DNA from: Pseudomonadota bacterium
Lineage (GTDB): Bacteria; Pseudomonadota; Gammaproteobacteria; Burkholderiales; Burkholderiaceae_C
Assembly: GCA_018241265.1 (NCBI GenBank)
Contig: JAFEEF010000069.1
Coordinates: 33,004-97,003 of the forward strand
Length of the DNA stretch: 64,000 bases
Direction of reading: 5' to 3'
The notes beneath the pieces are model-generated. The model had not been told where the DNA came from. It made no database searches and was given only the letters and a program-made list of their open reading frames with translations. Shown here in pieces: positions 36,381 to 45,152 of this stretch. Made by a program: the position numbers and the translations under genes. Positions within the stretch are counted from its first letter, which is position 1. The number at the start of each line of letters is the position of its first letter.

Positions 36381-36469
36381 GCGGTGCATCCTCGGGTAGG
36401 GGAACGCGTGGGTTGTACACGCTTCTGCCCATCCGGAGATACTCGACCGCTCTACCCCGAGACCGGACC

Positions 36470-37375
36470 ATGACCTTCGAGACGCTGACCTGCACGATCG
36501 CCGACCATGTGCTGACGATCACGTTGAGCCGCCCGGAGCAGCTCAACACCTTCACCGCGGCGATGATGAACGAGCTGATCGCCGCCTTCGACGGCGCCGA
36601 TGCGGACGACGACGTGCGCGCGATCGTCGTCACCGGCAGCGGCCGCGCGTTCTGCGCCGGCGCCGACTTGTCGCAGGGCGGCCAGACCTTCGACTACGCA
36701 CAGCGCAGCGACCGGCCCGACAAGGCCGCGTCGCCGCGCCGCGACGACGGCTCGATCGACTGGAGCCACGAATCGGTGCGCGACGGCGGCGGCCGCGTCG
36801 CATTGCGCATCTTCGAGAGCAAGAAGCCGGTGATCGCGGCGATCAACGGCGCCGCGGTCGGCATCGGCGCGACGATGCTGTTGCCGATGGACGTCCGCAT
36901 CGCGTCCGACAACGCCCGTTTCGGCTTCGTGTTCGCGCGTCGCGGCATCACGCCGGAGGCCTGCTCGAGCTGGTTCCTGCCGCGCATCGTCGGCATCAGC
37001 CGGGCGCTCGAATGGACCTGCACCGGGCGCATCTTCCCGGCCCGGGAAGCGCTCGCCGGCAATCTCGTCAGCAACGTCGTCGCGCCCGACGCGCTGCTGC
37101 CGGCGGCGCATGCGCTGGCGCGCGAGATCGCCGACAACGCCGCGCCGGTGTCGGTGGCGCTGACGCGCCAGATGATGTGGCGCATGCTCGGCGCCGACCA
37201 TCCGATGGAGGCGCACAAGATCGACAGCCGCTCGATCTACGCGCGCGGCGCGATGGCCGATGCGAAGGAAGGCGTCGGCGCGTTCCTCGAGAAGCGGCCG
37301 GCGCAGTTCACCGACAAGGTGTCAACCGACATGCCGGCGTTCTATCCGTGGTGGCGCGAGCGGCCCTACGTCTAA
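36470..37375 (+). CDS. enoyl-CoA hydratase/isomerase (crotonase) family protein
   Basis: Crotonase fold motifs [14 protein letters not shown] and [15 protein letters not shown]. Confidence 0.8.
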
Positions 37376-37396: not shown

Positions 37397-39334
37397 TCAG
37401 CCGCGCGCGAGTTGCGTAGCCTTCAACGCACTCATCAACGCCAGCATCGTCGACAGCGCGTTCGCATCTCCGCCCTGGGCGCCGAGCTGGATCTGCGGCA
37501 CGAGCGGCACCTTGGCCGTCTCGAAGGCTTCGGCGATGCGCAGCATCACGGTCTGCGTGAGCTGCTTGTCGGCGCCCTCGCCCTGCAGCGCGTCCGACTT
37601 CGCCTTGATCGCAGCGCCTTCGGCCTCGCCGACGCTCTTGATCGCGGCCGCGCGTCCGAGGCCTTCGTTCTCCTGGCGGAAGCGCTCCGCCTGCGCCAGC
37701 GCTTCGATCTCCTGGCGCCGCTTCTCGGCCATCTTCACCGCCGCCGCGCCCTGGTTGTCGCGGATCGTGATGTCGACCAGCGACGCGGTCAGCTCGGCCT
37801 GCTTCTCGGCGCGCTTCTCGGCCTCCTTCAGCTCGCGCTGCTTGTCGGCCGCGATCTGCTTCTGGGCGTACGTCTCGACCTGCTCGCGCGCGATCTGCCG
37901 GTCGCGCAGCTGCGCCATGATGTCCTCGATGCGGTGGTCGCCGGCCTGCGGCTTCGGCGTCCCGATCAGCACCTCCTGGAACTCGAGCGAATAGGCGAGG
38001 AAGCGCTCGCGCATGTCGATCGACGCGTTGGCCTGCAATTCGCTCCGCGACTGGATCAGCTCGATGAAGGTGCGCGTCTGGCTGACGTTCTTGAAGTACG
38101 ACGACACCATCGGGTCGAGCGTCTGCTCGACCAGCTGCTTCACGTTGCCGAAGCGCTGCACCACCATCGGCGCCTTGCGGTAGTCGATGTGCACGACGAC
38201 CGACAGCGGCAGCTGCGGCTCGAACGCGTCCTTCGTGATCAGCGTGATCTCGCGCAGGTTCGAATCGAAGTTCGAGCCGCTCGCGTTCGATTGCCACATC
38301 AGCACGAAGTTGGTCGTCGGCACCAGCTCGATCTTGCCGGCGTAGGTGTTGAAGGCGTACTTGCCCGGCATCAGCGGATCGCGCCAGACGCCGCGGCAGC
38401 CGCTCGCGACGAGCTCGCCGTGGCTGTAGTCGACGCCCGACGTGTCCTCGCCCTTCGCGCCGGTGTACGACACGACGACGCCGACGAAGCCGACCGGGAT
38501 CACCGTCTTCGGGATCAGCTCGACGGTCGCGAACAGCCGGTTGATGTAGTAGGTGCCTTCGACCAGCACGCGCTCCTGGCGCCCGCGCCGGCCGCCGGCG
38601 GCGAGGAAGGCCTCGGGCTCCTGGAACGAGTGATGCCCATCGCCGACGTCGGGCGCGAGCAGGTCGTCGCGTTGCAGCGCGGGCCCGTCCTGCACCGTGA
38701 CGACCGCCAGCAGATCCGAGTCGTGGTCGGCACCGGCACCGCGCACGATGATCGGCGTGAAGGCGTGCCGCTCGTCGAGCAGCTCGCGCATCTTCGCGTA
38801 GTAGCCGTGCTCCGTCGCATCGAGCGCGAGCGAATAGGTCGCCTCTTCGGTCATCACGACGAACAGCGCCGGATTGACGATGTGCGTGCCTTCACGAAGC
38901 ACCTTGCGCTGCGGGCCCTTCTGTCCGCCGCCGCGCAGGAAGGCGCGCACGTCGCGGAAGTCGTCGACCTGCGCATTGGCCGCCAAGGTCTGGCCCGAAG
39001 CGAGATCGAGCCCGTCGCGCGCGAACACGTAGCCGATCTTGCCTTGCGTCACCGCGACCATCGACCGGATGTGCACGCGGTACTGGAACGGCGCGAACGC
39101 GTGGAAGCCGCCGCGCAGCAGCTCGGGCTGGAAGCCCGCTTCGCCGTCGAGCGCGAGCAGGCCGCTGCGCACCGAGCCGCGGCCGCTCCACAGCCGTTCG
39201 ACGACGCCGATGCGATCGTTCGGGATGTAGCGCACCATGCCCGAGATGCGCATGAACAGTGCGATGGCCAATAGCGTAGCCGGGCCGATGACGAGCCCTA
39301 TGACCCATGCCGGGCCGAAACCGAGGCTGAACAT
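37397..39334 (-). CDS. SPFH/band-7 (flotillin-like, YqiK family) membrane protein
   Basis: N-terminal TM anchor (MFSLGFGPAWVIGLVIGPATLLAIALF). Long SPFH core. C-terminal coiled-coil rich in EA/KR repeats (...QIAREQVETYAQKQIAADKQRELKEAEKRAEKQAEL...). Confidence 0.75.
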   Translation of the reverse strand: MFSLGFGPAWVIGLVIGPATLLAIALFMRISGMVRYIPNDRIGVVERLWSGRGSVRSGLLALDGEAGFQPELLRGGFHAFAPFQYRVHIRSMVAVTQGKIGYVFARDGLDLASGQTLAANAQVDDFRDVRAFLRGGGQKGPQRKVLREGTHIVNPALFVVMTEEATYSLALDATEHGYYAKMRELLDERHAFTPIIVRGAGADHDSDLLAVVTVQDGPALQRDDLLAPDVGDGHHSFQEPEAFLAAGGRRGRQERVLVEGTYYINRLFATVELIPKTVIPVGFVGVVVSYTGAKGEDTSGVDYSHGELVASGCRGVWRDPLMPGKYAFNTYAGKIELVPTTNFVLMWQSNASGSNFDSNLREITLITKDAFEPQLPLSVVVHIDYRKAPMVVQRFGNVKQLVEQTLDPMVSSYFKNVSQTRTFIELIQSRSELQANASIDMRERFLAYSLEFQEVLIGTPKPQAGDHRIEDIMAQLRDRQIAREQVETYAQKQIAADKQRELKEAEKRAEKQAELTASLVDITIRDNQGAAAVKMAEKRRQEIEALAQAERFRQENEGLGRAAAIKSVGEAEGAAIKAKSDALQGEGADKQLTQTVMLRIAEAFETAKVPLVPQIQLGAQGGDANALSTMLALMSALKATQLARG

Positions 39335-39771
39335 GATTTCCTCTTGGAAGAGTTTGGGAAGAGTTTGGAGCAACGCCCGTCCGGCGTCGCCCATGGGCGC
39401 GATGCGGTCGCGACCGACCGGCGCGTACGTTCGATGCGCGCTCGATGACACCTCCCCGCGTTCAACGATCGGGGCGGCGCAAGCGGGGAAGATTCAGGGG
39501 CGCCGTCGCGGCAGCCGCAGACGGATGGTCCAACCCGCCGGCAGCGGCAGGTCCAACGGACGTAAGGCGTGGATGCCGGCGACGCGCCCTGGGCGGGCGC
39601 GACCGGCGCGGTGCGCGCCGCAGTCGAATGCGTTCACGATGTGCTCTGGTGTCTGCGGCCGTAGCCCGACGCGGCGCATCGTCCTCCGTTGCCGGCGCTT
39701 TGCAAGCGGATGCTACAAAGGCCCTGACGGGCAAGCATGTATGCCGTGCGCAGCCACGCGCCGGGCCCTGT

Positions 39772-40185
39772 TCAGAAGCAGCCGTCGTCGTCGACGTGCA
39801 AGCGGCAGGCGAAGCGCATCATCTCGGCGTTCTGCTTCATCGAGCGGCGAAACACCGCAGCAGCTTCGTGCTCGATCGCATCGGGCAGCGGGACCGCAAC
39901 CGGCGCACCGGTCGAGTTGGTGTAGAAGTTGATGAAGCAGGTGCGCCGCGGCTCGCAGAGCAGAGACAGCTGACGTACGTAAGCATCGCGGTCGCGTGCC
40001 TCGGCGTCCGGCACGATGACGACCTCGATGATTCCCTGACGTCCGGCCACCGGCCAGGCGCCGCCGGCCGGCGCAGACGCGGGCGCGGGCTGTGCGCCTG
40101 CGCCGGCCGAGAGGAGCACCAGCGCGGCCACGGCAGAACAGCGCCGCCCGTGTCGCGTCGTGATGGTGACCCAGCGCTGGCTCAT
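39772..40185 (-). CDS. hypothetical secreted/periplasmic protein
   Basis: Start MSQRWVTITTRHGRRCSAVAALVLLSAGAGAQP (signal peptide). About 137 aa with 4 Cys. Upstream track extension is non-coding-like. Confidence 0.45.
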   Translation of the reverse strand: MSQRWVTITTRHGRRCSAVAALVLLSAGAGAQPAPASAPAGGAWPVAGRQGIIEVVIVPDAEARDRDAYVRQLSLLCEPRRTCFINFYTNSTGAPVAVPLPDAIEHEAAAVFRRSMKQNAEMMRFACRLHVDDDGCF

Positions 40186-40339
40186 GTCGATCTCCGTTGT
40201 TCGAGGCAGGACCGTTCGACTGTAGTGCAGGGTTCGACGCGGCCGGTGCATCCCCAGTCCGAAGTACCGCCGGCCCTGCGCTGCCGGGGCGATCTGAGGT
40301 AAAAAGCAAGCCCGCCGAGGCCGGCTGCCAACGAGCCCG

Positions 40340-41617
40340 ATGCGCGCCATCTTCATCAGCTATCGCCGCGAAGACGCCGAAGGCCATGCCGGACGGCTCT
40401 TCGAAGACCTCGTGCAACGCTTCGGCAGCGCGTCCGTGTTCATGGACGTCGCCGACATCGAGCCGGGCCGCGACTTCCGGCGCGTCATCGAGGAGCAGGT
40501 GGCGTCGTGCGGCGTGCTGCTCGCGGTGATCGGCAAGAGCTGGCTCGACGTGGCCGATGCACAGGGCAAGCGGCGTCTCGACGACCCGTACGACTTCGTC
40601 GTGCTCGAGACCGCTTCGGCCCTGAAGCGCGACATCCCGGTGATACCGGTGCTGGTGCACGGCGCGACGATGCCGCGCGCCGAGCAGTTGCCCGATGCGC
40701 TGAAGGATCTGGCCTACCGCAACAGCGTCGGGCTGACGCACGTACGCTGGAGCTCCGACGTGCAGTTGCTGATCCGTGCGCTGCTGCCGTATGTCGATGC
40801 GGCGAGCGGCGACGTGCGGCCGGTTGCCGCACCCGTGCCGGCACCGGCGCCGGTGCCGGCAGCTGCAACTGCGCCCGCACCCTCGCCCGCCTATCCGCCC
40901 ACGGAGCAGCGCAGCAGGCTTCCGCTCGCCACGCTCGGCAGCGTGGTCGCCATCGGTGCGGTCGCCGGCATCGGCTACCTGTGGTCGGATCACGCACGGA
41001 AGCCGATCGTCGCGCAGTCCGACTTCACGGCGGCGAGCCAGCCGGTCGCGTCGGTCGCTCCGGCGCCGATGCCAGCGCCGGCACCCGCGCCGGCGCCCGC
41101 GCGGACCTCGGAGGCGAGCGGGCCGATCGGCGACGCCGATGTCGCGAAGCCGGCACCTGCCGCACCGCCACCCCACAAGCGTCCGCCTGCCCCGGCACCC
41201 CGCCCGATCGAGACGACCGTGGCCACCGCCACGCCGGCCCCGGCGCCTGCGCCGGCCCTGGTCCCGGCTCCACTGCCGCCGGCCGCGCCGCCGCCGACCG
41301 GCGCGCCGGTCCCGGATGCATCGACGGATGCCGAGATGGCCATACCGAGCCGCGCCGACCCGGCGCTCGCCATCTACGGCGATCGCGTCAAGGTGAGCTT
41401 CGCGACGCGTACCATCGTCATCACGCCATCGACCAACTACGTCAACGTGACCGGCGGAGAGATCATTCGCTTCGTCGTCGGCAACAAGTCGATGGCATGG
41501 AACTTCAACGGCCGCTCGGGCAGCTTCGACCTGGCGCGCGCCGCGCCGGCGCTGATCGACCACAAGGTCACGGCGTACATCGCGCCCAATCCGTACTACC
41601 CGCGCTCCGGCGGCTGA
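40340..41617 (+). CDS. TIR domain-containing single-pass membrane protein (TIR - Pro/Ala-rich linker - TM - C-terminal domain)
   Basis: MRAIFISYRREDAEGHAGRLFEDL...VFMDVADIEPGRDFRRVIEEQVASCGVLLAVIGKSWL is a canonical bacterial TIR (TIR_2-like). TM LATLGSVVAIGAVAGIGYLW. PAPAPA low-complexity linkers. C-terminal roughly 95-aa beta-rich domain. Confidence 0.7.
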   Translation: MRAIFISYRREDAEGHAGRLFEDLVQRFGSASVFMDVADIEPGRDFRRVIEEQVASCGVLLAVIGKSWLDVADAQGKRRLDDPYDFVVLETASALKRDIPVIPVLVHGATMPRAEQLPDALKDLAYRNSVGLTHVRWSSDVQLLIRALLPYVDAASGDVRPVAAPVPAPAPVPAAATAPAPSPAYPPTEQRSRLPLATLGSVVAIGAVAGIGYLWSDHARKPIVAQSDFTAASQPVASVAPAPMPAPAPAPAPARTSEASGPIGDADVAKPAPAAPPPHKRPPAPAPRPIETTVATATPAPAPAPALVPAPLPPAAPPPTGAPVPDASTDAEMAIPSRADPALAIYGDRVKVSFATRTIVITPSTNYVNVTGGEIIRFVVGNKSMAWNFNGRSGSFDLARAAPALIDHKVTAYIAPNPYYPRSGG

Positions 41618-41700: not shown

Positions 41701-42636
41701 CTACCAGTCGTCGCTGCCGCCGCCCCCGCCGCCGCTGTCGAACGATCCGCCGGCGTCGCCGCCCCAGTCGTCGCCGTTGCCGAAGTCGACCGGGCGCTCT
41801 TCGAGCGCGCGCGCATCGGCGTCACGGCTGTTGTCGATGAACGAGCCCGGATCGAACGGGCCGCCGCCGGCACCGCTGTCATGCGGGATGTAGCCTTGCT
41901 GCGAGTCATGGCCGCGCTCGAGCATCTTCTCGGCGAGCATGCCGGCCGCGACGCCGCCTGCAGCGGCCAGGCCGACGCCGAGCATGCCGGAGCCGCCGCT
42001 CGACGGCACCGGTCCGGGGCCGTACCCTGGCCCGTATCCCGGGCCATACCCCGGCCCATACCCCGCACCGCCGGTCGGGCCGTAGCCCGGCGCATAGGTC
42101 GTCGCCGCGTTGCCGTACCCCGGCGCCGGCACCGGACCGGACGCGCGGCTGCGGCTCAGCATGCGCCACAGGAAGTAGCCGATCGCGAGCAGGCCGACCA
42201 GCCAGATCCAGCCCGGAATCCCGGAGCGCTGGACGACGGGCTGCGGCGCCACCGGTGCCGGCACGACATCGGTGGACAGGGACGGCGCGGCGGGACGCGT
42301 GTTCGCCGACGCGCGACGCGCCTGCTCGCGGTCCAGCGTCTGCTGGAAGCTGCGAAACTTGTCGGGCTGCGTGAACGACAGCGACGGATCGATCTGGCGC
42401 GCCCGGTCGGCCTGCTGCGCCGCCTCGGCGAAACGGTCGTTGTGCGCCAGGATCTCGGCGTAGACGTAGTGCGCCTTGGCGCTGTCGGGCTTGGCCGCGA
42501 CCACCTCGCGCATCATCGACTCGGCCTGTGCGTAGTCGCCTTTCTGCACCGCCGCCTCGACGTTGGCCACCGTCGGCAGCGCGAACGCCACCGAGGCCAG
42601 TACCGCGAGCCCGAAGCCGATCAACCAGCGTTTCAT
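41701..42636 (-). CDS. TPR-repeat membrane protein with Gly/Tyr-rich C-terminal region
   Basis: Signal peptide. TPR-like helices (AKAHYVYAEILAHNDRFAEAAQQADRARQIDP). TM WIWLVGLLAIGYFLW. GYGPGYGPGYGPGYGPG repeats. Confidence 0.55.
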   Translation of the reverse strand: MKRWLIGFGLAVLASVAFALPTVANVEAAVQKGDYAQAESMMREVVAAKPDSAKAHYVYAEILAHNDRFAEAAQQADRARQIDPSLSFTQPDKFRSFQQTLDREQARRASANTRPAAPSLSTDVVPAPVAPQPVVQRSGIPGWIWLVGLLAIGYFLWRMLSRSRASGPVPAPGYGNAATTYAPGYGPTGGAGYGPGYGPGYGPGYGPGPVPSSGGSGMLGVGLAAAGGVAAGMLAEKMLERGHDSQQGYIPHDSGAGGGPFDPGSFIDNSRDADARALEERPVDFGNGDDWGGDAGGSFDSGGGGGGSDDW

Positions 42637-43967: not shown

Positions 43968-45152
43968 ATGAGCCAGCGTGACGTGGTCGTACTTTCTGCC
44001 GTTCGCTCGGCGATCGGCACTTTCGGCGGGTCGCTCGCCGACATCGAGCCGGCCGAGCTGGCCGGCACCGTGATGAAGGAGGCGGTCGCCCGCTCCGGCG
44101 TCGATCCGAAGCAGATCGGCTACGTGACGGTCGGCAACACGATTCCGACCGAATCGCGCTTCGCCTACGTCGCGCGGGTCGCGTCGATCCAGGCCGGCCT
44201 GCCGATGGAATCGGTCGCGATGGCGGTGAACCGCCTGTGCTCGTCGGGCCTGCAGGGCATCGTGACGACCGCGCAGAACATCCTGCTCGGCGACTACGAC
44301 TACGGCATCGGCGGCGGCGTCGAGGTGATGAGCCGCGGCGGCTACCTCTCGACCGCGCTGCGCACCGGCGCGCGCATGGGCGACACGAAGTTCATCGACA
44401 TGATGGTCGCGACCTTGACCGATCCGTTCGGCGTCGGCCACATGGGCATCACCGCCGAGAACCTCGCCGAGAAGTGGGGCATCACGCGCGGCGACCAGGA
44501 CGCCCTCGCGGCCGAATCGCACCGGCGCGCCGCCGCGGCGATCGTCGAGGGCCGCTTCAAGTCGCAGATCGTCGCGATCACGAAGCAGACCAGGAAGGGC
44601 GAGGTCGTGTTCGACACCGACGAGCACGTCAAGGCGCAGACCACCGTCGAGACGCTCGCGAAGATGAAGCCGGCGTTCAAGAAGGACGGCACCGTGACCG
44701 CCGGCAATGCGTCCGGCATCAACGACGGCGCCTCGTTCTTCGTGCTCGCCGATGCGGCGAAGGCGGCGGCCGGCGGCCACAAGCCGATCGCGCGGCTCGT
44801 GTCGTATGCGGTCGCCGGCGTGTCCAACGAGATCATGGGCGAAGGCCCGATCCCGGCGTCGAAGATCGCCCTCAAGAAGGCCGGCCTCACGGTCGACCAG
44901 ATGGACGTCGTCGAGAGCAACGAGGCCTTCGCATCGCAGGCGCTGACGGTCGCGCGCGGCCTCGAGCTCGACCCGAAGAAGACCAACCCGAACGGCGGTG
45001 CGATCGCGCTCGGCCATCCGATCGGCGCGTCCGGCGCGGTGATCGCGACCAAGGCGCTCTACGAGCTGCAGCGTACCGGCGGCCGCTACGCGCTCGTCAC
45101 GATGTGCATCGGCGGCGGCCAGGGCATCGCCACGGTGTTCGAGCGGATCTGA
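43968..45152 (+). CDS. acetyl-CoA C-acetyltransferase (beta-ketothiolase)
   Basis: Thiolase active-site contexts (VNRLCSSGLQ Cys; C-terminal CIGGGQG). 394 aa. Confidence 0.85.
   Translation: MSQRDVVVLSAVRSAIGTFGGSLADIEPAELAGTVMKEAVARSGVDPKQIGYVTVGNTIPTESRFAYVARVASIQAGLPMESVAMAVNRLCSSGLQGIVTTAQNILLGDYDYGIGGGVEVMSRGGYLSTALRTGARMGDTKFIDMMVATLTDPFGVGHMGITAENLAEKWGITRGDQDALAAESHRRAAAAIVEGRFKSQIVAITKQTRKGEVVFDTDEHVKAQTTVETLAKMKPAFKKDGTVTAGNASGINDGASFFVLADAAKAAAGGHKPIARLVSYAVAGVSNEIMGEGPIPASKIALKKAGLTVDQMDVVESNEAFASQALTVARGLELDPKKTNPNGGAIALGHPIGASGAVIATKALYELQRTGGRYALVTMCIGGGQGIATVFERI

What the first reader, a model, noticed from the sequence alone, without database searches (positions are those of the whole stretch)
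40340..41617. Native-GC TIR-domain protein with receptor-like topology (cytoplasmic TIR, single TM, extracytoplasmic C-terminal domain)
- Residues 1 to about 150 are an unambiguous TIR_2-type domain (IFISYRREDAEGHAGRLFEDL..., ...VFMDVADIEPGRDFRRVIEEQV...CGVLLAVIGKSWL, ...IPVIPVLVHG).
- After the TIR domain comes a Pro/Ala-rich low-complexity linker.
- A single hydrophobic helix (LATLGSVVAIGAVAGIGYLW) follows.
- A second long PAPAPA-type linker comes next.
- The protein ends in a roughly 95-aa C-terminal beta-rich domain (…IYGDRVKVSFATRTIVITPSTNYVNVTGGEIIRFVVGNKSMAWNFNGRSGSFDL…) that I cannot assign.
- Codon usage and GC are native, so this is not a recent acquisition.
- A TIR effector coupled through the membrane to a putative periplasmic sensing domain is an unusual architecture.
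- It could be a signalling receptor or an envelope-stress or phage-triggered NADase.
Basis: partly seen in the sequence, partly recalled or inferred. Interest (0 to 1): 0.68.

Follow-up and report, generated by a model that had tools for sequence, protein, structure and literature searches.

The report
Membrane-anchored SARM1-like TIR with CzcE ectodomain
This gene encodes a membrane protein with an NAD-cleaving-type TIR domain inside the cell and a CzcE-type metal-binding-family domain outside it. It belongs to a very large, unstudied bacterial family that pairs one conserved TIR "head" with many different outward-facing sensor domains, so it looks like a bacterial receptor.

Summary
The ORF at 40340-41617 (+) encodes 425 aa:
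- a TIR_2 domain (residues 1-150)
- a Pro/Ala linker
- one hydrophobic segment (196-216)
- a 128-aa Pro/Ala spacer
- a C-terminal beta domain

It is a CzcE-family domain (Pfam PF16986, 62.8 bits). Its AlphaFold model matches the CzcE crystal structure 2WTO (TM 0.77, rmsd 1.6 Å).

In the PDB, a TIR profile matches only SARM1/TIR-1 by sequence (E 9e-14). It keeps the catalytic Glu (E90 = SARM1 E642), which is invariant in all 121 and 142 relatives aligned.

The fusion is real. About 97 protein clusters carry both domains, and identical ORFs occur in several independent assemblies. GenBank annotates only the last 93 aa.

The TIR head, at 69-84% identity, leads at least 8,002 clusters at E ≤ 1e-30. 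In the closest representatives it is followed by one TM segment and swappable ectodomains: PASTA, lectins, TonB_C-like, Ig-like, CzcE.

No neighbouring gene is conserved. The flanks are housekeeping genes, and the family is almost absent from viral contigs.

Most likely it is a one-component transmembrane sensor with NADase output. That function is inferred, not shown. I found no description of the architecture in the literature searched.

The parts
40340..41617 (+). Complete gene, 425 codons plus TGA stop: TIR, linker, TM, linker, CzcE-like domain.
   Evidence: ORF list. GC3 is 0.87. The identical 425-aa product is called on contigs from SRA runs SRR24111730, SRR24111727 and SRR24111737. About 97 homologous clusters share the two-domain architecture.
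40340..40789 (+). Cytoplasmic TIR domain (residues 1-150), SARM1-like.
   Evidence: Pfam TIR_2, 44.5 bits against a cut-off of 28. A family profile against the PDB hits only SARM1/TIR-1, E 9e-14. Foldseek matches SARM1 TIR at E 3e-4, TMt 0.65-0.71. Median identity to 91 CzcE-type homologues is 80%.
40607..40609 (+). Codon GAG for E90, the predicted catalytic glutamate, equivalent to SARM1 E642.
   Evidence: The alignment to SARM1 pairs 'VVLETASAL' with 'VHKEIVTAL'. E90 is invariant in 121 sequences, 142 sequences and 111 sequences. The codon was verified. Other aligned residues are Y8/R9/R10 = Y568/R569/R570, N128 = N679 and H134 = H685.
40790..40924 (+). Pro/Ala-rich cytoplasmic linker (residues 151-195).
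   Evidence: 53% Pro+Ala. Only 18% median identity to homologues. AlphaFold2 gives low confidence and coil.
40925..40987 (+). Predicted single transmembrane segment (residues 196-216, LATLGSVVAIGAVAGIGYLWS).
   Evidence: Kyte-Doolittle 1.88 over 19 residues. A hydrophobic segment sits at the same relative position in most relatives. The positive-inside bias is consistent with N-in. AlphaFold2 did not model it as a helix.
40988..41371 (+). Pro/Ala-rich periplasmic spacer (residues 217-344), containing short 6- and 12-nt repeats.
   Evidence: 55% Pro+Ala. 28% median identity, and the length varies widely among homologues (total lengths 389-647 aa). Tandem repeats found.
41372..41614 (+). Periplasmic CzcE-family beta domain (residues 345-425).
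   Evidence: Pfam CzcE PF16986, 62.8 bits against a cut-off of 30. phmmer to PDB 2wto, E 1.8e-7. AlphaFold2 pLDDT 89-96. Foldseek to 2wto/2wtp: E 5e-8, TMt 0.76-0.78, rmsd 1.6-1.8 Å, 35-36% identity. Invariant residues include G347, I359, N369, V370, T371, G373, W387, F389, G391, F396, L398, A402, P403, Y413 and A415.
41336..41617 (+). The only part annotated in the GenBank MAG record: 93 aa from the internal Met333, MBS0448904.1, 'CzcE family metal-binding protein'. This gene model is probably truncated.
   Evidence: Cluster look-up. The neighbouring accession MBS0448903.1 is the upstream 194-aa ORF, so no TIR CDS lies between them (inference). The 93-aa product would lack a signal peptide, whereas genuine stand-alone relatives have one.

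Best explanation
The gene encodes a single-pass inner-membrane protein. Its N-terminal SARM1-like TIR domain faces the cytoplasm, and its active-site residues look intact. A Pro/Ala linker leads to one transmembrane segment. A long Pro/Ala spacer of about 128 residues then projects a CzcE-family beta domain into the periplasm.

It is one member of a very large family. In that family the same highly conserved TIR head and TM anchor are joined to interchangeable extracytoplasmic binding domains.

The most likely mechanism is a one-component transmembrane sensor:
1. The ectodomain binds a ligand or self-associates. By homology to CzcE, the ligand here is plausibly a periplasmic metal ion (Cu or Zn) or a metal-dependent partner.
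2. This changes how the cytoplasmic TIR domains associate with each other.
3. As in SARM1 and bacterial TIR enzymes, that association switches on NAD+ cleavage.
4. NAD+ is depleted, or an ADP-ribose-derived signal is produced, leading to growth arrest or a stress response.

Shown here: domain identities, the fold of the ectodomain, conservation of catalytic residues, conservation of the architecture, modular ectodomain swapping, and the stand-alone native genomic setting. Inferred: membrane insertion and N-in topology, enzymatic activity, the ligand, and the physiological output.
For: **Domains**
- TIR_2 and CzcE both score above Pfam's cut-offs.
- The ectodomain model matches the CzcE crystal structures at TMt 0.76-0.78.

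**TIR and its active site**
- A profile of 16 diverse TIR heads finds only SARM1/TIR-1 in the PDB, with best E 9e-14. Foldseek agrees.
- E90 (= E642), Y8/R9/R10, N128 (= N679) and H134 (= H685) are invariant or nearly invariant.
- The TIR is the most conserved part of the protein. Median identity is 80%, against 62% for the ectodomain and 18-28% for the linkers.
- Synonymous sites are strongly diverged (pS 0.36-0.61) and dN/dS is 0.08-0.30.

**Topology**
- The single hydrophobic segment is conserved in position.
- The positive-inside bias favours N-in.
- Stand-alone relatives of the ectodomain have signal peptides or lipoboxes. One carries a His/Gly-rich tail.

**Receptor logic**
- Of the 111 closest cluster representatives, all have TIR_2. 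Their ectodomains include PASTA (19), ricin-type lectin, tachylectin, FG-GAP, PAN, VHL-beta, lipocalin-like and Big_1.

**Family size**
- 8,002 clusters at 50% identity match the TIR head at E ≤ 1e-30.

**Stand-alone, native setting**
- No neighbouring gene family recurs in more than 7 of 39 independent loci.
- The flanking genes are housekeeping: SpoT/RelA, GreA/GreB-family elongation factor, glutamate-cysteine ligase, thiolase, FTHFS and transketolase.
- One lineage places the gene directly upstream of a Fur-family/NicO/ZrgA metal-uptake cluster.
Against: - There is no experimental evidence for NADase activity, membrane insertion or ligand binding.
- AlphaFold2 gave low confidence for the TM region and no helix there. 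Confidence for the TIR itself was only moderate, pLDDT 50-80.
- In the CzcE-type subfamily the TM segment is Gly-rich and only marginally hydrophobic (KD 1.4-1.95). Several homologues fall below a 1.5 threshold.
- The ectodomain has no invariant His, Cys or Met.
  - The His in the aligned stretch of C. metallidurans CzcE has no counterpart here.
  - H408 is Arg in about half of the fused homologues.
  - Metal binding is therefore uncertain.
- Metal-related neighbours occur in only one lineage.
- No downstream receptor for a TIR-made signal is linked to this gene.
Confidence: 0.55

Rival explanations
1. It is a single-gene abortive-infection or anti-phage system. The ectodomain would detect phage adsorption or envelope damage, and the TIR would then deplete NAD+ to kill or arrest the cell. 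The mechanics match the best explanation, but the trigger and biological role differ.
For: - TIR NADases are common phage-defence effectors (established knowledge; reviewed in papers listed).
- A conserved effector with hypervariable sensor domains is typical of immune receptors.
- In five related loci (L054, L059, L087, L092, L096) a DUF4231/SLATT 2TM protein lies directly next to the TIR-TM gene. Members of that family are predicted effectors of nucleotide-signalling conflict systems.
- There are weak partial matches to ThsB and ThcB4 models.
Against: - No PADLOC or NCBIfam defence model is matched beyond the first ~60 residues. The ThcB4 score is 44.7 bits against a cut-off of 220.
- There is no defence island or mobile-element context. 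The flanks are core metabolism.
- The TIR head is unusually conserved for an immune gene, including 78% identity to a Binatia homologue.
- Only one distant relative was found in 2.9 million viral contigs, and there was no PHROG match.
- No SLATT gene is present in the 64-kb window.
Confidence: 0.2
2. The TIR is a non-enzymatic scaffold. The protein would be a membrane-tethered periplasmic metal-binding or chaperone protein, or an envelope-spanning tether. Its TIR would only mediate protein-protein association, as in animal TLR adaptors.
For: - Many TIR domains act as scaffolds (PMC7075850).
- The long Pro/Ala spacer resembles periplasm-spanning linkers such as that of TonB (my own knowledge). 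One relative has a TonB_C-like ectodomain, read from the L092 sequence.
- Stand-alone CzcE relatives exist without any TIR.
Against: - The residues needed for SARM1 catalysis are invariant across hundreds of sequences: E642, and the position of H685.
- The closest solved relatives are all NAD+ hydrolases.
- A pure tether would not need the most conserved domain of the protein to be a SARM1-like TIR.
Confidence: 0.12
3. The two-domain ORF is an artefact or a read-through. Under this view the real gene is the 93-aa CzcE protein annotated in GenBank, and the upstream TIR region is a separate gene or a pseudogene.
For: - The GenBank record annotates only the last 93 aa.
- Similar short C-terminal calls exist for homologues: P0275, and P0270/P0271.
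Against: - The ORF is uninterrupted and has coding-type GC3 in all five sub-regions.
- The identical 425-aa product appears in several independent SRA assemblies.
- About 97 clusters carry both domains in one protein, from many samples.
- The 93-aa product would lack the signal peptide that genuine stand-alone relatives have.
- P0275 is the C-terminus of the full-length P0009, with one residue different.
Confidence: 0.03

Closest known systems
SARM1 / TIR-1 TIR domain (animal NAD+ hydrolase)
   Same: It is the only solved TIR family matched by sequence (profile E 9e-14), and it is the best structural match for the TIR part. The FISYRR motif is shared, as are the catalytic Glu (E642 = E90), N679 (= N128) and H685 (= H134). 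The literature places SARM1's TIR inside a bacterial TIR lineage (PMC13142454).
   Different: SARM1 is a soluble or mitochondria-associated octamer regulated by ARM and SAM domains, with the TIR at the C-terminus. Here the TIR is N-terminal and is followed by a TM segment and a periplasmic domain. Identity is only about 26%. Activity has not been tested here.
CzcE (Rmet_5976, PDB 2WTO/2WTP), the periplasmic Cu/Zn-binding protein of the Cupriavidus metallidurans czc system
   Same: Same Pfam family (PF16986) and same fold (TMt 0.76-0.78, 35-36% identity). Both are periplasmic. CzcE feeds into signalling through the membrane kinase CzcS (PMC10127602), so the family already has a sensory-accessory role.
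   Different: CzcE is a small soluble secreted protein encoded in a metal-efflux operon. Here the domain is covalently tethered to a TM segment and a TIR, and no czc genes are nearby. The His in the aligned part of CzcE is not conserved.
PknB-type Ser/Thr kinases with PASTA ectodomains (functional analogy only)
   Same: Same layout: an N-terminal cytoplasmic enzyme, a single TM segment, and C-terminal extracytoplasmic sensor domains. Of the 111 closest family representatives, 19 carry PASTA domains after the TM.
   Different: The output domain is a TIR rather than a protein kinase, and there is no homology in the cytoplasmic part.
Toll-like / IL-1 receptors
   Same: Single-pass membrane proteins that couple an extracellular binding domain to a cytoplasmic TIR (PMC7075850).
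   Different: The orientation is reversed: animal receptors are N-out with a C-terminal TIR, whereas this protein is N-in with an N-terminal TIR. The ectodomains differ (LRR or Ig). Animal receptor TIRs are mainly scaffolds, whereas this TIR is of the SARM1-like enzymatic type. They are not homologous as whole proteins.
Dictyostelium TirC (a TM-tethered TIR NADase of bacterial origin)
   Same: A TIR NADase held at a membrane by a single hydrophobic helix. The tether restrains toxicity (PMC13142454). This is a precedent for membrane tethering as a regulator of TIR oligomerisation.
   Different: TirC has an N-terminal helix and no ectodomain. Its TIR is related to TIR-STING rather than to SARM1.
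Thoeris ThsB and other phage-defence TIR proteins
   Same: Bacterial TIR domains with a catalytic Glu. There are weak partial HMM matches over residues 2-62.
   Different: Scores fall far below the family cut-offs. No ThsA, cyclase or other partner is present. The genomic setting is not a defence island.

Membership tests
Pfam TIR_2 (PF13676) | HMM score above the gathering threshold | tested here: met
   44.5 bits against a cut-off of 28, residues 4-125. All 111 scanned relatives also match.
Enzymatic (NAD+-cleaving) TIR domains | Conserved catalytic glutamate at the position of SARM1 E642 | tested here: met
   E90 aligns with E642. It is invariant in alignments A1, A3, A4 and A5.
Enzymatic (NAD+-cleaving) TIR domains | Measured NAD+ hydrolase or cyclase activity | not testable with these tools
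   This needs a biochemical assay.
SARM1-like TIR lineage | Closest to SARM1/TIR-1 among characterised TIRs | tested here: met
   The profile search of the PDB returned 19 distinct sequences, all SARM1/TIR-1, best E 9e-14. The top TIR hits by Foldseek are also SARM1/TIR-1. Only solved structures were compared.
SARM1-like TIR lineage | Placement within the SARM1-containing clade in a TIR phylogeny | not tested
   No tree with reference TIR clades was built.
CzcE family (PF16986) | HMM score above the gathering threshold | tested here: met
   62.8 bits against a cut-off of 30, residues 345-420, profile positions 2-80 of 81.
CzcE family (PF16986) | CzcE beta-fold | tested here: met
   The AlphaFold2 model (pLDDT 89-96) against 2wto/2wtp gives E 5e-8, TMt 0.76-0.78 and rmsd 1.6-1.8 Å.
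CzcE family (PF16986) | Periplasmic location | tested here: inconclusive
   Location is inferred from the preceding TM segment and from signal peptides or lipoboxes on stand-alone relatives. No topology predictor or experiment was available, and AlphaFold2 did not model the TM as a helix.
CzcE family (PF16986) | Copper or zinc binding residues | tested here: inconclusive
   The paper defining CzcE's ligands is not held. The fused subfamily has no invariant His, Cys or Met. E374 and D397 are nearly invariant. H408 is present here and in stand-alone relatives, but is Arg in about half of the fused homologues.
Thoeris (ThsB / ThcB4) | Family HMM above cut-off, and an adjacent ThsA-type effector | tested here: not met
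   NCBIfam ThcB4 scores 44.7 bits against a cut-off of 220, over residues 2-62 only. PADLOC ThsB gives E 5e-6, also partial. No ThsA-like neighbour is present in the window or in related loci.
CBASS / Pycsar TIR effectors | Adjacent nucleotide cyclase (CD-NTase or Pyc cyclase) and a nucleotide-sensor domain fused to the TIR | tested here: not met
   Neighbours are an SPFH protein, a small secreted protein, a TPR protein and metabolic enzymes. There is no SAVED or STING domain. The PADLOC SAVED_TIR hit covers only residues 3-61.
Toll-like receptors | N-terminal LRR ectodomain, TM segment, C-terminal cytoplasmic TIR | tested here: not met
   The orientation is reversed, the ectodomain is CzcE rather than LRR, and the TIR is of the SARM1 type.

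The most novel reading that the evidence does not exclude
The gene would represent a major, undescribed class of bacterial transmembrane receptors: 'TIR receptors'. A near-invariant SARM1-like TIR head would be the cytoplasmic output, and dozens of interchangeable extracytoplasmic domains would be the inputs (PASTA, lectins, TonB_C, Ig-like, CzcE). On this reading the family is used for housekeeping surveillance of the environment or the envelope, here of periplasmic metal, rather than only for phage defence. It would also be the bacterial lineage from which the animal SARM1 TIR was acquired.
Probability: 0.3. Interest if true: 0.85.

Novelty: new variant of a known kind. Interest (0 to 1): 0.66.

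Why it matters
TIR domains are central to immunity and cell death in animals, plants and bacteria. The bacterial TIRs studied so far are soluble and mostly phage-defence components.

This gene points to a family of thousands of clusters in which a SARM1-like, catalytically competent-looking TIR is wired across the membrane to exchangeable outward-facing binding domains. If the coupling is real, three things follow:
- NAD+ cleavage would be a bacterial transmembrane signalling output, alongside histidine kinases, Ser/Thr kinases and cyclases.
- The family would offer a tractable bacterial model for how TIR oligomerisation is gated from outside the cell.
- It would supply concrete candidates for the bacterial source of SARM1's TIR.

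For annotation, GenBank and some JGI gene calls truncate these genes to the C-terminal CzcE domain. That hides the TIR from catalogue-based surveys.

Tried and rejected
- **Genome-collection scan with the single protein.** Taxonomic distribution therefore rests on a few NCBI names (Caldimonas, Pseudomonadota, Binatia) and on contig GC.
- **Cluster-member look-up for organism names.** It gave none.
- **Search for a conserved operon partner.** None applies to the CzcE-type genes. The recurring neighbours are generic ABC or kinase paralogues, or local synteny with an enoyl-CoA hydratase.
- **Defence-system libraries (PADLOC, NCBIfam, PHROGs).** They gave only partial or sub-threshold TIR matches.
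- **Viral contig scan.** One distant hit.
- **Full-length AlphaFold2 model.** It was low-confidence outside the CzcE domain. I used it only for local Foldseek matches, not for topology or domain arrangement.
- **CzcE metal-ligand paper and AFDB fold library.** Neither was available.
- **Paralogues in the window.** None found.
- **Recent horizontal acquisition.** Rejected on composition and housekeeping flanks.
- **Fusion artefact.** Rejected on conservation of the architecture.
Full report
**1. The observation**

The ORF 40340-41617 (+) is present exactly as described: 425 aa, ATG start, TGA stop. The protein divides into five regions.

| Region | Residues | Key property |
|---|---|---|
| Globular N-terminal domain | 1-150 | TIR_2 |
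| Linker 1 | 151-195 | 53% Pro+Ala |
| Hydrophobic segment | 196-216 | Kyte-Doolittle 1.88 over 19 residues |
| Linker 2 | 217-344 | 55% Pro+Ala |
| Globular C-terminal domain | 345-425 | CzcE family |

GC3 is 0.87 for the gene, and every sub-region shows coding-type bias. The window is uniformly about 70% GC.

The flanking genes are core housekeeping genes:
- SpoT/RelA
- GreA/GreB-family elongation factor
- glutamate-cysteine ligase
- acetoacetate decarboxylase
- enoyl-CoA hydratase
- an SPFH protein
- isocitrate/isopropylmalate dehydrogenase family
- thiolase
- formate-tetrahydrofolate ligase
- FBP aldolase
- transketolase

The 'native, not recently acquired' statement therefore holds.

**2. 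Domain identities**

Pfam finds TIR_2 at residues 4-125 (44.5 bits, cut-off 28). It also finds CzcE (PF16986) at residues 345-420 (62.8 bits, cut-off 30).

An AlphaFold2 model of residues 321-425 was built with 65 homologues. It is confident (pLDDT 89-96 across the domain) and has seven strands. Foldseek against the PDB gives the C. metallidurans CzcE structures 2WTO and 2WTP as the only significant matches: E 5e-8, TMt 0.76-0.78, rmsd 1.6-1.8 Å, 35-36% identity. Weak cupredoxin hits follow at E about 0.05.

[quoted passage not shown] Together with CzcD, it influences czc expression through the sensor kinase CzcS (PMC10127602).

**3. The TIR domain**

phmmer of the whole protein against PDB sequences hits the SARM1 TIR at E about 1e-3. 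A profile of 16 diverse family heads hits only SARM1 and C. elegans TIR-1: 19 distinct chains, best E 9e-14, profile positions 3-149 aligned to SARM1 563-700.

The full-length AlphaFold2 model is only moderately confident in the TIR (pLDDT 50-80). Its secondary-structure order is TIR-like, and its best non-CzcE Foldseek matches are again SARM1/TIR-1 (E 3e-4, TMt 0.65-0.71). Other TIRs follow.

In these alignments the residues correspond as follows:
- E90 = SARM1 E642
- Y8/R9/R10 = Y568/R569/R570
- N128 = N679
- H134 = H685

PDB entries for the E642A and H685A mutants appear in the hit lists. E90 is invariant in every alignment made: 121, 142, 111 and 16 sequences.

**4. Is the fusion real?**

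A search of 5.8 billion clustered proteins returned about 97 clusters annotated with both PF16986 and PF13676, at 389-647 aa. The exact 425-aa protein is called on contigs from several independent SRA runs.

The source appears to be an NCBI MAG named 'Pseudomonadota bacterium', on a contig of 97,003 bp. Its annotation contains only a 93-aa 'CzcE family metal-binding protein' (MBS0448904.1), starting at the internal Met333. The preceding accession is the upstream 194-aa ORF. The TIR and TM part therefore seems to be unannotated in GenBank.

A 93-aa product would lack any export signal. Genuine stand-alone relatives carry signal peptides or lipoboxes. These are 56-63% identical and come from Collimonas, Noviherbaspirillum, Glaciimonas and Burkholderiaceae. 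I conclude that the 425-aa model is correct. Similar truncated calls exist for homologues. For example, P0275 matches the C-terminus of P0009 apart from one residue.

**5. Topology**

No dedicated predictor was available, so the evidence is comparative.

- A hydrophobic segment follows the TIR at a conserved distance in most homologues. Of 139 closest cluster representatives, 117 have exactly one, with a median linker of 40 aa and a median of 188 aa beyond it.
- In non-CzcE relatives the segment is strongly hydrophobic (KD 2.0-3.4).
- Lys+Arg counts in the 15-residue flanks favour the N-terminal side: 141 sequences against 56, out of 273. These sequences are not independent.
- The domains found after the segment are extracytoplasmic types.
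- The CzcE-family domain is exported when it occurs alone.

Against this, the CzcE-type segment is Gly-rich and only marginally hydrophobic. AlphaFold2 left residues 187-230 as low-confidence coil. I rate the N-in/C-out single-pass topology as likely, not proven.

**6. The wider family**

phmmer of residues 1-154 against 1.84 billion cluster representatives gave these counts:

| E-value threshold | Matching representatives |
|---|---|
| ≤ 1e-3 | 34,118 |
| ≤ 1e-30 | 8,002 |

The best 150 are all 69-84% identical over the TIR, apart from eight multi-stretch proteins listed at 43-56%. They range from 191 to 641 aa in length.

A Pfam census of 111 of these found TIR_2 in all of them. After the TM segment it found PASTA (19) and ricin-type lectin (3). 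It also found VHL-beta (2) and lipocalin-like (2). Tachylectin, FG-GAP, PAN, Big_1, MORN and others occurred once each.

Sequences from a metagenome scan add a TonB_C-like ectodomain and a coiled-coil plus Cys-rich ectodomain. The contigs span 47-73% GC. The CzcE type occurs only in contigs of 64-73% GC. NCBI names seen were Caldimonas sp., Pseudomonadota and Candidatus Binatia. The Binatia protein's TIR is 78% identical to this one.

Within the CzcE type, median identity to the window protein by region is:

| Region | Median identity |
|---|---|
| TIR | 80% |
| Ectodomain | 62% |
| TM segment | 24% |
| Linkers | 18-28% |

Between six loci, synonymous differences in the TIR are large (pS 0.36-0.61) and dN/dS is 0.08-0.30. 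The similarity therefore reflects purifying selection rather than recent transfer of identical DNA.

The pattern is a conserved cytoplasmic head with swappable outward-facing modules. That is the layout of receptor families such as the PknB-PASTA kinases.

**7. Genomic context**

In the window the gene stands alone.
- Upstream and divergent: a small, probably secreted 137-aa protein with no family match.
- Downstream and convergent: a 311-aa TPR/TM/Gly-rich protein.

Six long homologous contigs show different neighbours.
- One lineage has a Fur-family/NicO/ZrgA/ABC/DUF3299 metal-uptake cluster immediately downstream (L006, L007, L020).
- Two have sulfate-type ABC transporter genes.
- Two have a 74-aa ORF and KdpD.

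I clustered neighbours across 46 loci of at least 5 kb, which form 39 independent groups. No family occurred in more than 7 groups. The families that did recur were generic ABC and histidine-kinase paralogues, or local synteny with an enoyl-CoA hydratase.

There is one notable exception among non-CzcE relatives. A DUF4231/SLATT 2TM protein, about 74% identical between loci, lies directly adjacent in five loci whose TIR proteins have different ectodomains. None is present in this window.

Defence libraries give only partial, sub-threshold hits. PHROGs gives none. Only one distant relative was found in 2.9 million viral contigs.

**8. Mechanism**

The best-supported reading is a one-component transmembrane sensor. 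The periplasmic CzcE-like domain sits at the end of a long Pro/Ala spacer. It would bind a ligand or self-associate. CzcE is reported to be dimeric, but that is from memory and was not verified here. This would alter the self-association of the cytoplasmic TIRs.

In SARM1 and in bacterial TIR enzymes, self-association creates the active site for NAD+ cleavage (established knowledge). The output would be NAD+ depletion or an ADP-ribose-derived signal.

A metal ligand is plausible from family membership, from a His/Gly-rich tail on a close stand-alone relative, and from one metal-cluster context. It is not secure, because no His, Cys or Met is invariant in the fused subfamily.

Rivals are:
- a phage or envelope-damage abortive-infection role, with the same mechanics but a different trigger
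- a non-enzymatic scaffold or tether
- an annotation artefact, which is effectively excluded

**9. Comparison with what is known, and novelty**

The parts are known: SARM1-like TIR and CzcE family. Automated pipelines already label some homologues 'CzcE/TIR'.

No paper in the searched library contains both 'TIR domain' and 'CzcE'. The only paper with both 'TIR domain' and 'PASTA domain' does not describe such a fusion. A survey of TIR diversity notes only that bacterial TIR groups have varied architectures and are little studied (PMC7075850). The literature does state that SARM1's TIR nests within a bacterial clade, and it gives one precedent for a TM-tethered TIR NADase, the amoeba protein TirC (PMC13142454).

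I therefore class this as a new variant of a known kind: a TIR enzyme with a previously undescribed membrane-receptor coupling. It belongs to a large, uncharacterised family. Interest is moderately high, because the family-level pattern is striking and directly testable, but function is still inferred.

Noticed in passing
window 41336-41617 (and 40340-41335): The GenBank MAG record annotates only the C-terminal 93 aa (MBS0448904.1, 'CzcE family metal-binding protein'). The TIR and TM part appears to be unannotated. Similar truncated calls exist for homologues: P0275, and P0270/P0271. Gene callers seem to break these genes in the Pro/Ala-rich linker.
   Followed up: partly
L054:37-471, L059:2872-3381, L087:2150-2647, L092:7511-8077, L096:5212-5664: A DUF4231/SLATT 2TM protein of about 150 aa (PF14015, E 1.5e-25), about 74% identical between loci, lies directly next to TIR-TM genes of the same family that carry different ectodomains. 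It may be an effector partner in a sub-lineage. It is absent from this window.
   Followed up: partly
L006:9285-13569, L007:1405-3148 and L020:7281-10933: In one lineage the TIR-CzcE gene sits immediately upstream, on the same strand, of a cluster encoding a Fur-family regulator, NicO, ZrgA, an ABC ATPase, FtsX and DUF3299. This looks like a Zur-type metal-uptake cluster. It is the only metal-related context seen.
   Followed up: partly
window 39772-40185 (-): A divergently transcribed 137-aa ORF with an apparent signal peptide and four Cys residues in the predicted mature part. It has no Pfam, PADLOC, NCBIfam or PHROG match. GenBank calls it as 194 aa (39772-40356), which would overlap the TIR gene start by 17 nt. 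The 57-codon N-terminal extension has lower GC3 (0.74).
   Followed up: partly
window 41701-42636 (-): A convergent 311-aa protein. It has an N-terminal signal or anchor, TPR repeats (TPR_16, E 4e-11), a mid-protein hydrophobic segment, a Gly/Tyr/Pro-rich region with a sub-threshold DUF2076 match, and an acidic tail. It is not found next to TIR-CzcE genes elsewhere.
   Followed up: partly
window 37397-39451 (-): A large 684-aa SPFH/Band 7 (flotillin-like) protein lies two genes upstream. An unrelated relative's locus (L015) also has Band_7 and NfeD genes within 5 kb, which is probably coincidence.
   Followed up: no
P0285 (Collimonas sp. PA-H2, 141 aa): A stand-alone CzcE-family relative, 61% identical to this ectodomain, ends in a His/Gly-rich tail (GGGDGHHHGDGHGGGHGGDHGG...). 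This suggests metal binding in this branch of the family.
   Followed up: no
window 40829-40860, 41071-41102, 41234-41268: Short 6- and 12-nt tandem repeats encode the PAPAPA stretches. Linker length varies greatly among homologues (proteins of 389-647 aa), which may reflect repeat slippage.
   Followed up: no
window 36413-37375 and 43968-45152; L028:4831-5955 and L028:7174-8079; L009:3356-4261: There is weak local synteny. An enoyl-CoA hydratase and/or a thiolase lies near the TIR-CzcE gene in the window, in L028 and in L009. This suggests vertical inheritance within one Burkholderiales-like lineage.
   Followed up: partly
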